In this document: positions 6,791-10,200 of the stretch, one piece after another
How positions within the stretch are numbered: the first letter of the stretch is position 1
Layout of the letters: every line of letters starts with the position of its first letter
Source: the human T2T-CHM13v2.0 reference genome, Homo sapiens
Assembly: GCF_009914755.1 (NCBI RefSeq)
Contig: NC_060927.1
Direction: 5' to 3' (one strand)
Length of the DNA: 64,000 nucleotides
Notes under the pieces: generated by a model
The model's input: only the letters and a program-made list of their open reading frames with translations
What the model was told of the DNA's origin: nothing
Database searches by the model: none
Made by a program: the position numbers and the translations under genes

Positions 6791-7138
6791 CAAGTGATTT
6801 TTTGGAAAACTATTTTCGCATATTAAATTATTTTTTACAATGGAAATGTTATATACAGGGAACCAGAATGCTTTGTGTCTCAAATAAGGTGTAAGCTACA
6901 GAGAAACAGAAGCAGGAAAGAGAAGGTATCTCAAGCAGGAGGAATGAGACAGGCAAAGGGGCACAGGGCAGAGGACAGACAGTGCCCCCAGAATGGCACA
7001 GGGAGTGGTGTCAAGGATTAGTGGTCAGTAAGTCAGACTGCACCTCTGAAATCAGCCTAGCAGATAACCAAGATCATCTTGCACAGTTCTTACCACAAGA
7101 TCCAATCCACTGACAAAAATACAGAGCGTATTACTTAC

Positions 7139-7264
7139 AATTGGAAGCCCTAACTTCGCAGGCAAGCATATTTTGCATGAATTGGCAGGTTACAAATGAA
7201 CATAAGAAGACAGCATCTGTCAAGTCCCTTAGGAAACCAGGCAGAACCAAATGTAATTCCTTAC
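7139..7264 (-). other. Candidate internal exon (126 nt; 171 nt with alternative donor at 7094) of an unidentified minus-strand gene, beginning with GTAAGG
   Basis: Acceptor tgtgttatgtgtttatgtttttcag (CAG 7267-7265); donors ATT|GTAAGT (7138) and GTG|GTAAGA (7093); non-repeat sequence; one fully open frame in phase with the upstream exon. Confidence 0.65.
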
Positions 7265-10200
7265 CTGAAAAACATAAACACATAACACACATTAAAATTC
7301 AATAGGCAAATTTTATGCCTTTCTTAGTAATTTAAGACATATGTTTAATCAATTATTTCTTTTTCTCATTGCAAGGTGCCTACGGCAAGTGGATATTGAA
7401 TTCTCTTTTGTTTTTCCCCCCTTGAGGTAGAGTCTCGCTCTGTGGCCCAGGCTGGAGTACAATGGCACAATCTTGGCTCACTGCAACCTCAGACTCCCAG
7501 GCTCATGCAGTCCTCCCACTTTGGCCTCCCAGTAGCTGGGATTACACGTGTGCACTATCATGCCCAGCTAATTTTTTGTATTTTTTATAGAGACAGGGAT
7601 TTGCCATGTTGCCCAGGCTGGTCTCGAACTCCTGGCCTAAAGTGATCTACCCACCTCAGCTTCCCAAAGTGCTGGGATTGCAGGCATGAGCCACTGCACC
7701 TGGCCAGATACTGAATTCTTTTCTTTTTTTAGATGGAGTCTTGCTCTGTCACCCAGGCTGCAGTACAGTGGCACAATCTCAGCTCACTGCAACCTCTGCC
7801 TCCCAGGTTCAAGCGATTCTCCTTCCTCAGCCTCCCAACTAGCTGGGACTACAGGCACCTGCCACCACGCCTGGCTAATTTTTGTATTTTTAGTAGAGAC
7901 AGGGTTTTAATATGTTGGCCAGGCTGGTCTCAAACTCCTGACCTTGTGATCTGCCTGCCTTGGCCTTCCAAAGTGCTGGGATTACAGGTGTGAGCCACCA
8001 CGTCCAGCCCTGAATTCTTAATTCAATGCATATTTTTCCCTGATTCAAGACTAATTTGATGTAAATGTTTCTATATAGGATGATAAATTCTCCTATATAG
8101 GATGATAAATGTTCCTGATGCAAGTATATGGAGTCACTATATCAAACATAACTCAGAAATAACTATATCATTGACAGTATAATTAGTCATTTCCAGGACA
8201 TAACAATCACATAATCAAATGGACCCTAAAGTCCTACTTGACATCTCATCCAACCCCTGAATTCACCCGTCCTCTTCTTGGGTATCTATCCATTCACTCG
8301 GCACATCTAGTGAGCACAAACTACCCTTGCTGATGACATGGAGGGGAAAAGCATGATTCCAGCCATCAAGGGCATTAAAATATAATATAGAAATAAACTA
8401 TATTCAAGCCTCTTCCCTCTTCACTGGTGAATATCTGGAAAATAATTATATTACTTTGTACTGCTTCTGCCTAGTCAATCACTGACTCAGTAAGTATATT
8501 CAGAGCATTTCTCTGGGCTAGGAATACATAATACAGCAGCAAACAGAGCCCCATCTCTGGCCTTGGGGAACTTACAGTCTAGTAGCAAATACACATATTT
8601 TAGTACAAGCACATGTAATGGGAAGGCCAAACAGGGTGATCTAGTCTGGGCTAATGGAAGACGCCTTGATGAGGCACATTTAGAGTGAGATCTAAGCCAG
8701 GCGTGGTGGCCAATGTCTGACATTCCAGCTATTCAGGAGGCTGAGGCAGGACGAATGTGTGAGGCCAGGAAGTCAAAGCCAGCCTGAGCAACAAAGTAAG
8801 ACCGTGTCTCAGTCACCTAAAGGATGAATAAGAGTTAAAGGAAAGCATCATTTAGGTGTATGAAAGTGGTTCTCAAACTGTGTTTAGGGGACCCTCTGAG
8901 GAGTCTTAACACTTTTTCAGGAGATACATAAGCTCAAAACCATTACTTAATCATGCAAAGATGTACATGCCCTTTTCACTCTCATCTTACAGTTATGTTT
9001 TCCAGAGGCTACAGGCCTGAAGGCAGAAGCAGCAATGAGAACCCAGCTGCCCTACATTAAACCAGACTGCCCAGAGATGGCCAAACATCTAACAAAATTC
9101 CACTCTTCTCACTAAATATTTAGTTCTAGAAACTATTTCTTTAAAAAATATTACTTATGTTAATACATAATAGGGATATTATTGTAATTTTTTTAAATGA
9201 ATTAATACACATTTGTAATTTCTCAATTTCCATTTCTAAAAAGGTAAATATGCAGGGAATAAAAGCTCTTTGGTGTCCTCGAGTATATTTAAGAGTCCAG
9301 AGGGGTGAACTGTGGACTTCAGTTGAGTGATGTGTTGATATAGATTCATCAATGGTAACAAATGTCCCACAATAATGCAAGATGTTAAGAAGAGAAACTG
9401 CGGGAGAGGAGGAGAAGGCGTCCATGGAGACTCTACTTTCTGCGCCATCTTCCTGCTAAACCTAAAACTGCTCTAAAAAATAAGGTCTATTTAAGGGGGA
9501 AAAAAAGAGTCTAAAAGAATGTCAAGACCAAAAAGTTTGAGAACCACTGGCCTACAGAAAGGCAGAAGCAAAGCCAGCGGGCGAGGCAGGGGTGGTGGGC
9601 AGAGAAGCCAGTGAGCCAAATGCTGGGAAACCAAGACTCGGGGTGCCAGTAATTAGGACCAGAATGTGGCTCTAAACACAGTTTTTAAAAAGATATTGCT
9701 TCACAGCATTCCTGCCAGAAACAGGACTCCTCCTCTCTCCGAAACTGATGATAGCTAAGAGGGACAAGGAAAACCTAAGAGTCTCAGAGGCAGTCAGGCT
9801 CCAAGCATGGGCCAGGGTGCTCCTTAGTAGCCAAATTTAGACATGAAGATTTTTCAAGTTTGCTCTTATTTTATTCCTAAAGGAATTAAGGTGTAGTTGT
9901 TATTTTAATATCTATTAGGTAACAAAAACTGCCCTCAAAGAGTTGCTGAGAACAGTGACATTAAGCAGGCCCCATGCCCACTTTCTTGTGTGTCAAGTAG
10001 AACACTAAAACTGTGAGCCACAGGAATATTCTGATTCTCAAGTTCAAGTCTTTTGGGGATGATTAATGCAAAGCCCAGGGTAGGATATGGGCCTTTAGAT
10101 GTTCTGGCTCTGCTCTAAGTTAAGATTTTCTAAAACTGAGCAGGAACCCCCAGAGAGTCCAGAATAGAAGGAAAGTTATGTATCTATTCAAAGGATAAGA

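What the first reader, a model, noticed from the sequence alone, without database searches (positions are those of the whole stretch)
7088..7300. Recursive-splice-exon architecture: acceptor AG immediately followed by GTAAGG
Seen on the minus strand: ...gtttatgtttttCAG|GTAAGGaattac, with downstream donors ATT|GTAAGT (+126) and GTG|GTAAGA (+171). Joining the upstream exon (ends AAT) recreates AAT|GTAAGG, one base different from its native donor AAT|GTAAGT. Established: vertebrate RS-exons are defined as exons and then removed or kept by competition between the reconstituted and downstream 5' splice sites, and the exon junction complex can suppress re-splicing. Inference: this site may act as a switch that includes or erases the exon.
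Basis: partly seen in the sequence, partly recalled or inferred. Interest (0 to 1): 0.8.

Follow-up and report, generated by a model that had tools for sequence, protein, structure and literature searches.

The report
Known MAGI1 intron-1 recursive splice site
This is the already published recursive splice site in the 416-kb first intron of human MAGI1, where the intron is cut out in two steps through a short hidden exon that is normally erased, so it is real but not new.

Summary
The motif is real. On the minus strand...tgtttatgtttttCAG|GTAAGGaattac puts the first base after AG at window 7264. Donors follow at ATT|GTAAGT (+126) and GTG|GTAAGA (+171).

The bare motif YAGGTAAG is at chance frequency, 5 matches against 4.68 expected. 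The case therefore rests on outside evidence.

The RT-PCR primers that Zhang et al. 2018 (PMC6110456, S6 Table) used to validate a recursive splice (RS) site in MAGI1 intron 1 map exactly here. The spacing gives their 136-bp product. Their tables give junction reads, a saw-tooth, a 3'SS MaxEnt score of 10.77 and PhastCons 1.

The true upstream exon is MAGI1 exon 1, which lies outside the window and ends AAG, not AAT. Its native donor AAG|GTAAGG is identical over -3..+6 to the donor rebuilt at 7264.

Keeping the 126-nt RS-exon would create a TGA across the junction with exon 2. Published RT-PCR found no inclusion product in human cells. A Magi1 cryptic exon in mouse, whose orthology I did not verify, was likewise not included in mature mRNA.

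The site behaves as a constitutively erased cryptic RS-exon. No data show it acting as a switch or being controlled by the exon junction complex (EJC). It is already known, so interest is low.

The parts
7265..7300 (-). 3' splice site of the recursive site. It is a U/G-rich pyrimidine tract ending in CAG. A candidate branch point TTAAT lies at 7295-7291, with its A at 7292 (-28).
   Evidence: Read directly. The 3'SS MaxEnt score of 10.77 comes from Zhang 2018 S3 Table. The branch point is my inference from the yUnAy consensus (recalled). No lariat entry for MAGI1 appears in their supplementary file 4.
7259..7264 (-). GTAAGG directly after the AG. After ligation to MAGI1 exon 1 (...AAG) it forms the reconstituted 5' splice site AAG|GTAAGG.
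   Evidence: The junction primer MAGI1-RS-F1 is the end of exon 1 plus GTAAGGAATTAC. The native exon-1 donor is AAG|GTAAGGCAGG. Both give a U1 duplex of -10.0 kcal/mol.
7139..7264 (-). Cryptic RS-exon of 126 nt. In the MAGI1 frame (phase 1) it is open, and a TGA forms across its junction with exon 2.
   Evidence: joined from the held files and translated. Primer MAGI1-RS-R1 lies inside it at 7162-7143. The region is unique in the genome.
7133..7141 (-). Downstream 5' splice site ATT|GTAAGT, the putative end of the RS-exon (+126).
   Evidence: 7 of 9 consensus matches and a U1 duplex of -7.0, weaker than the reconstituted site. I saw no data showing its use in human.
7088..7096 (-). Second downstream donor-like site GTG|GTAAGA (+171). 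Using it would bring in an in-frame TAA.
   Evidence: 6 of 9 consensus matches and a U1 duplex of -8.0.
43003..44619 (-). Exon 1 of the predicted lncRNA LOC107986018, with donor CAT|GTAAGT. It is modelled as spliced to the same acceptor at 7264, which would rebuild only CAT|GTAAGG.
   Evidence: Hub annotation, sequence, and a U1 duplex of -4.9 for CAT|GTAAGG. This is a predicted model only.

Best explanation
Window 7264 (minus strand; T2T chr3:65,789,264) is the established recursive splice site of MAGI1 intron 1.

Proposed mechanism:
1. The 416-kb intron is removed in two steps. Once Pol II has transcribed the site, the acceptor ...tttttCAG and a downstream 5' splice site (most likely ATT|GTAAGT at +126) define a cryptic 126-nt RS-exon.
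2. MAGI1 exon 1 is spliced to 7264, which removes the first ~293 kb.
3. The junction rebuilds AAG|GTAAGG, the same 9-mer as the native donor of exon 1. It outcompetes the weaker downstream donor.
4. The second step splices from the rebuilt donor to exon 2, ~124 kb away. This erases the RS-exon without trace.
5. If the RS-exon escaped erasure, a TGA would form at its junction with exon 2, so the transcript would be a nonsense-mediated decay (NMD) target.

Shown: the exon1-to-7264 junction, the saw-tooth, conservation of AGGT, and absence of the inclusion product (all published). Also shown here: identity of the donors and the stop codon.

Inferred: which downstream donor defines the exon, the branch point, and the NMD fate.
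For: - Zhang et al. [quoted passage not shown]
- Their S6 primers map here. The 3' 12 nt of RS-F1 match window 7264-7253(-). The reverse complement of RS-R1 matches 7162-7143(-). Each is unique in the window.
- The 14 nt of exon 1 plus 122 nt gives 136 bp, their band size.
- S2/S3 tables list hg19 chr3:65731263 at 292,407 and 123,500 nt from the intron ends. The T2T distances I measured are 292,755 and 123,544 nt.
- Junction reads (total/unique) are 10/10, 9/7, 8/8 and 3/3, first seen at 120 min of 4sU.
- Saw-tooth fold changes are 4.09, 4.03 and 2.42. 3'SS MaxEnt is 10.77 and PhastCons is 1 over AGGT.
- Of 15 rows for putative sites in this intron in S1, only this site appears in S2 and S3.
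- The native exon-1 donor is AAG|GTAAGGCAGG and the rebuilt one is AAG|GTAAGGAATT. They are identical over -3..+6 and both give a U1 duplex of -10.0, against -7.0 and -8.0 for the two downstream donors.
- Mouse Magi1 shows a saw-tooth and RS (Hayashi 2018, PMC5809388).
- Moon and Zhao 2022 describe a Magi1 cryptic exon whose rebuilt 5'SS is much stronger than the downstream one and which is not included in mRNA (PMC8797253).
- A 2024 preprint re-found the MAGI1 site of Sibley 2015 in liver.
Against: - The motif alone is at chance frequency.
- I could not read Sibley et al. 2015 (not held). Whether their MAGI1 site is this exact base is therefore unverified. Zhang et al. call theirs 'novel', while Hayashi et al. 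say Magi1 RS was previously reported.
- Zhang's text says the site was seen in all three cell lines, but MAGI1 occurs once in each of S2 and S3, in the PA1 sheet.
- The expected inclusion band they quote is 262 bp. That is 1 bp more than 135 + 126.
- No lariat or branch-point entry for MAGI1 exists in their file 4.
- Use of the +126 donor in human is not documented in anything I read.
- Orthology of the mouse cryptic exon to this base could not be checked, because the figures are PDFs and no mouse genome is available here.
- My donor strengths are a crude U1-duplex proxy, not MaxEntScan.
Confidence: 0.93

Rival explanations
1. Regulated switch or poison exon. The RS-exon would be kept or erased in a regulated way, for example by EJC repression of the rebuilt donor, so as to tune MAGI1 output through NMD.
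For: - The architecture allows it: there are two competing donors, and inclusion gives a stop codon.
- In mouse nuclear RNA, both the upstream and the downstream splicing intermediates of a Magi1 cryptic exon were confirmed by RT-PCR. The downstream donor is therefore sometimes used.
- Tethering eIF4A3 upstream of a cryptic CADM2 RS-exon turned it into an included exon (Blazquez 2018).
Against: - No inclusion product was seen in human cells with flanking-exon primers.
- The Magi1 cryptic exon was not included in mature mouse mRNA.
- The rebuilt donor equals the native constitutive donor.
- Raising the RS-5'ss score causes skipping even with the EJC present.
- NMD could hide inclusion, so absence from mRNA is not decisive.
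Confidence: 0.12
2. Plain acceptor of the lncRNA LOC107986018. On this view 7264 is simply the 3' splice site of exon 2 of an independent intronic transcript, and the following GTAAGG is incidental.
For: - The RefSeq predicted model XR_007073591.1 joins 43003 to 7264 (hub table; sequence).
- The model's 3' end has an AATAAA 46 nt upstream and no downstream A-run.
Against: - The MAGI1 exon1-to-7264 junction was sequenced.
- A saw-tooth in MAGI1 nascent RNA and PhastCons 1 on AGGT are reported.
- The model is a single prediction with a 26.4-kb second exon starting exactly at the RS site. That is what post-RS nascent MAGI1 reads would look like to an assembler (inference).
- The two readings are not exclusive. 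As the sole explanation this one is very unlikely.
Confidence: 0.03
3. Chance juxtaposition of AG and GTAAGG with no splicing role.
For: YAGGTAAG occurs at the frequency expected by chance, 5 against 4.68.
Against: Published junction reads, RT-PCR and Sanger sequencing, saw-tooth and conservation all fall at exactly this base.
Confidence: 0.01

Closest known systems
MAGI1 first-intron RS site of Zhang et al. 2018 (PLoS Genet, PMC6110456; hg19 chr3:65731263)
   Same: It is the same base. Both validation primers map to 7264-7253 and 7162-7143 on the minus strand, the product size fits, and the distances to exons 1 and 2 fit.
   Different: Nothing differs apart from the assembly (T2T against hg19; about 0.4 kb of indels across the intron).
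Cryptic RS-exons of long vertebrate genes (Sibley et al. 2015, Nature 521:371; CADM1, CADM2, ANK3, PDE4D and others, with MAGI1 cited as one of them)
   Same: - It sits in a very long first intron.
- AG|GTAAG is followed by a downstream 5'SS that can define an exon.
- A strong rebuilt donor outcompetes the downstream one.
- The exon is erased, and its inclusion would give a premature stop.
   Different: I could not read that paper. Identity with their MAGI1 coordinate rests on citations by others and on my recall.
EJC-repressed annotated RS-exons (Blazquez et al. 2018, PMC6224609)
   Same: The exon starts with GT, and a 5'ss is rebuilt at the exon-exon junction.
   Different: Those exons are annotated, mostly constitutive, and become skipped on EJC loss. 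This exon is unannotated in MAGI1 mRNA and already skipped. Its rebuilt donor is as strong as a native constitutive donor.
Drosophila ratchet points (Ubx; Duff et al. 2015; Joseph et al. 2018, as cited)
   Same: A juxtaposed acceptor and donor allow stepwise removal of a long intron.
   Different: Flies have about 197 efficient intronic RS sites against about 10 in human.

Membership tests
Vertebrate intronic recursive splice site with cryptic RS-exon | A 3' splice site (pyrimidine tract plus YAG) directly followed by GT of a 5'ss-like motif | tested here: met
   The sequence reads tgtttatgtttttCAG|GTAAGG at 7264(-). Published 3'SS MaxEnt is 10.77.
Vertebrate intronic recursive splice site with cryptic RS-exon | Location deep in a long intron of a long gene | tested here: met
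   Exon 1 ends at C3:66082020 and exon 2 starts at C3:65665720. The intron is 416,299 nt in T2T, and the site lies 292,755 nt from exon 1.
Vertebrate intronic recursive splice site with cryptic RS-exon | A splicing intermediate joining the upstream exon to the RS site | tested here: met
   I ran no RNA data. The published junction primer and reverse primer map exactly here and predict the reported 136-bp Sanger-verified product. Junction reads are 10/10, 9/7, 8/8 and 3/3.
Vertebrate intronic recursive splice site with cryptic RS-exon | A saw-tooth in nascent or total RNA coverage at the site | not testable with these tools
   Published only. Fold changes are 4.09, 4.03 and 2.42, with permutation P of 1e-4 to 2.4e-3, in PA1 cells. 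Mouse saw-tooth is reported.
Vertebrate intronic recursive splice site with cryptic RS-exon | A reconstituted 5'ss that is strong and stronger than the downstream 5'ss of the RS-exon | tested here: met
   AAG|GTAAGG has 8 of 9 consensus matches and a U1 duplex of -10.0, identical to the native donor. ATT|GTAAGT gives -7.0 and GTG|GTAAGA gives -8.0. This is a crude proxy; MaxEntScan was not available. The mouse paper reports the same direction.
Vertebrate intronic recursive splice site with cryptic RS-exon | A downstream 5'ss actually used to define the RS-exon | tested here: inconclusive
   Two candidate donors are present. I read no human junction data for them. The mouse downstream intermediate was confirmed by RT-PCR, but its orthology is unverified.
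Vertebrate intronic recursive splice site with cryptic RS-exon | Evolutionary conservation of the AGGT | not testable with these tools
   No vertebrate genomes are on hand. The published 100-way PhastCons over AGGT is 1.
Vertebrate intronic recursive splice site with cryptic RS-exon | Lariat or branch-point evidence for both steps | not tested
   No MAGI1 entry in Zhang's supplementary file 4 and none in 3 supplementary files of PMC10156609.
EJC-repressed annotated RS-exon (Blazquez 2018) | The exon is annotated and included in mRNA, and becomes skipped on EJC depletion | tested here: not met
   No MAGI1 exon is annotated in the window (hub table). No inclusion product appeared with flanking-exon primers. 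The EJC response has not been tested by anyone I could find.

The most novel reading that the evidence does not exclude
The RS site may double as a checkpoint for transcripts that start or splice from within the intron.

When the upstream partner is LOC107986018 exon 1 (ending CAT) rather than MAGI1 exon 1, the junction rebuilds only CAT|GTAAGG. Its U1 duplex is -4.9, against -10.0 for the MAGI1 junction. Re-splicing would then fail. The transcript would keep the RS-exon and run on to an intronic AATAAA about 26 kb downstream, instead of joining MAGI1 exon 2.

This would be a concrete human example of an RS-exon diverting aberrant upstream exons away from the coding mRNA. The outcome would be set purely by the last three bases of the upstream exon.
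Probability: 0.2. Interest if true: 0.4.

Novelty: already known. Interest (0 to 1): 0.18.

Why it matters
Recursive splicing is how a few very long vertebrate introns are removed stepwise, and MAGI1 intron 1 is one of the small set of well-supported human cases.

It adds no new biology, because the site, its junction, its saw-tooth and its conservation are in print.

This check adds three modest points:
- The rebuilt donor is identical to the native exon-1 donor.
- Retaining the 126-nt RS-exon creates a TGA at the exon-2 junction.
- A RefSeq lncRNA model with a 26-kb exon starts exactly at the RS site, and it may be partly an artefact of post-RS nascent reads.

Tried and rejected
- Bare motif statistics: at chance, so they cannot support the finding.
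- First crude acceptor filter (at least 75% pyrimidines over 19 nt): it excluded the true site, whose tract is U/G-rich at 68% by that measure. I dropped it for the looser scan. Neither is a substitute for MaxEntScan, which is not installed.
Rejected as the partner.
- Sibley et al. 2015 (PMC4471124) and the 2016 review (PMC5154377): not held.
- Search of the library's main texts for the hg19 coordinate, its neighbours and my guessed hg38 equivalents: 0 papers.
- Lariat supplements of PMC10156609: 0 occurrences of MAGI1 in 3 files.
- PMC13076218: it mentions MAGI1 only as a tumour suppressor, so it is irrelevant.
- LOC107986018 in print: one unrelated paper appeared in the listing and I did not read it.
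- Paralogous copies of the RS region in the genome: only the site itself (1 candidate, 1 scored).
- The mouse S4 and S5 figures of PMC8797253 are PDFs and could not be read. They may hold the mouse coordinate and donor sequences that would settle orthology.
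Full report
**Observation.** On the minus strand the window reads ...gtgtgttatgtgtttatgtttttCAG|GTAAGGAATTAC.
- The first base after the AG is window 7264. This is also where the RefSeq model of LOC107986018 starts its second exon (hub table).
CAATT|GTAAGT has its exon end at 7139 (126 nt). TGTG|GTAAGA has its exon end at 7094 (171 nt).
It named an upstream exon ending AAT with native donor AAT|GTAAGT. The only AATGTAAGT in the window lies at 17619-17627(-) (1 match, 0.90 expected), in sequence with no annotated or evident exon.

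**Chance.** The bare motif YAGGTAAG occurs 5 times in the window against 4.68 expected, and 51 of 100 shuffles reach 5. The motif alone therefore proves nothing.
- In my crude scan, 24 of 237 minus-strand AGGT sites would give a strong donor after an AAG exon end. Only 7264 also has YAG, 73% pyrimidines in the 15 nt upstream and no upstream AG.
- The plus strand has one roughly similar site at 33088, with a weaker donor.
- An earlier, stricter pyrimidine filter missed the true site.
- Sequence alone is suggestive but not decisive.

**Identification.** Zhang et al. [quoted passage not shown] Their S6 Table gives the primers.
- MAGI1-RS-F1 is a junction primer: 14 nt of exon 1 (ending ...GACAAG) followed by GTAAGGAATTAC. 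That 12-mer is unique in the window, at 7264-7253(-).
- The reverse complement of MAGI1-RS-R1 is unique, at 7162-7143(-).
- 14 + 122 nt gives 136 bp, the band they report.
- Their S2/S3 tables place the site at hg19 chr3:65731263, in an intron of 415,907 nt, 292,407 nt from one end and 123,500 nt from the other.
- In the held T2T genome I located the end of exon 1 at C3:66082020 and the start of exon 2 at C3:65665720, using their exon primers. The resulting distances of 292,755 and 123,544 nt agree, within small indels.
- The 271-nt region around the site is unique in the genome.

**Published evidence at this base.**
- Junction reads in PA1 cells (total/unique) are 10/10 at 120 min, 9/7 at 4 h, 8/8 at 16 h and 3/3 at steady state. 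There are none at earlier time points (header).
- Saw-tooth fold changes are 4.09, 4.03 and 2.42, with permutation P of 1e-4 to 2.4e-3.
- 3'SS MaxEnt is 10.77, and 100-way PhastCons over the AGGT is 1.
- S1 carries 15 rows for putative sites in this intron. Only this site recurs in S2 and S3. S1 is flagged as cut when stored.
- Primers in the flanking exons gave only the 135-bp skipped product.
- In mouse, Hayashi et al. 2018 (PMC5809388, passages) found a Magi1 saw-tooth and say Magi1 RS was previously reported by Sibley et al. 2015.
- Moon and Zhao 2022 (PMC8797253, passages) describe a Magi1 'RS-like cryptic exon'. Its rebuilt 5'SS is much stronger than the downstream one, both intermediates were confirmed by RT-PCR, and it is not included in mature mRNA.
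- A 2024 preprint re-found the MAGI1 site of Sibley et al. in liver.

**What I added.**
- The native donor of MAGI1 exon 1 is ACAAG|GTAAGGCAGG. The donor rebuilt at 7264 is ACAAG|GTAAGGAATT.
- The two are identical over -3..+6. Both give a U1 duplex of -10.0 kcal/mol, against -7.0 for ATT|GTAAGT and -8.0 for GTG|GTAAGA. The U1 5' end is a recalled motif, and this is a crude proxy.
- Exon 1 ends in phase 1. Read in that frame, the 126-nt RS-exon is open for its whole length, and its last T joins the GA of exon 2 to make TGA. The 171-nt version runs into TAA. Retention would therefore give a premature stop.

**Mechanism.** The anatomy and the data fit the published cryptic RS-exon model.
- The steps are exon definition, ligation to exon 1, re-use of the rebuilt strong donor, and erasure of the RS-exon.
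- The first step and the outcome are shown in print.
- The choice of the defining downstream donor, the branch point (candidate TTAAT with its A at 7292) and the NMD fate are my inferences.

No data I found show inclusion of this exon, and nobody appears to have tested EJC loss at this site.
- Blazquez et al. 2018 (PMC6224609, passages) show that the EJC protects annotated RS-exons. They also show that raising the RS-5'ss score forces skipping even with the EJC present, and that tethering eIF4A3 can convert a cryptic CADM2 RS-exon into an included one.
- With a rebuilt donor equal to a constitutive donor, MAGI1 most likely sits on the 'always erased' side.
- NMD could hide some inclusion, so I keep the switch as a minor rival.

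**Caveats and inconsistencies.**
- Sibley et al. 2015 and the 2016 review are not held. Identity with their MAGI1 site rests on other papers' citations and on my recall.
- Zhang et al. call the site 'novel'.
- Their text says the site was seen in all three cell lines, but MAGI1 occurs once in each of S2 and S3, in the PA1 sheet.
- Their expected inclusion band of 262 bp is 1 bp more than 135 + 126.
- The mouse figures with coordinates are PDFs that I could not read.

**The lncRNA model.** LOC107986018 (predicted) joins 43003 (CACAT|GTAAGT) to 7264 and then runs 26.4 kb as one exon (hub table).
- That junction would rebuild only CAT|GTAAGG, with a U1 duplex of -4.9.
- The model's 3' end has an AATAAA 46 nt upstream and no A-run downstream.
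- It may reflect a real minor transcript that cannot re-splice, post-RS nascent MAGI1 reads assembled as an exon, or both. I did not resolve this.

**Verdict.** This is a real and correctly recognised recursive splice site, but it is already published.

Noticed in passing
window -19153..7264 (-) and 43003-44619 (-); L004 position 348: The predicted lncRNA LOC107986018 has a 26.4-kb second exon that begins exactly at the recursive splice site. Its modelled 3' end has an AATAAA 46 nt upstream and a U/GU-rich, not A-rich, downstream flank. It could be a real intronic polyadenylated transcript, or nascent post-RS MAGI1 reads assembled as an exon.
   Followed up: partly
window 7397-8012 (masked); read at 7403-7500 (-): An Alu-like element, in the same sense as MAGI1 and with the remnant of its A-tail, ends about 140 nt upstream of the RS acceptor. 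The Alu identification is from recall plus the hub's repeat mask. The RS-exon itself is unique sequence.
   Followed up: no
window 28874 (-): A second minus-strand CAG|GTAAGT has an even better donor half, but a poor pyrimidine tract (53%) and an upstream AG. I did not check whether it appears in any published candidate list.
   Followed up: no
about window 1663, 13144 and 57508 (-), estimated from hg19 offsets: Zhang 2018 S1 lists further conserved putative AGGT sites in MAGI1 intron 1 that should fall in this window: hg19 65725662, 65737143 and 65781507. Their 3'SS scores are 6.2-8.4. None has junction reads in S2. I estimated the window positions by offset and did not verify them.
   Followed up: no
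PMC6110456, text against tables: The text says the MAGI1 site was seen in all three cell lines, but MAGI1 occurs once in each of S2 and S3, in the PA1 sheet. The quoted 262-bp inclusion band is 1 bp more than 135 + 126.
   Followed up: partly
L002 1450-1466 (-), just downstream of MAGI1 exon 2: A (TG)n microsatellite starts about 40 nt into intron 2, after the exon-2 donor CCTT|GTAAGTAG.
   Followed up: no
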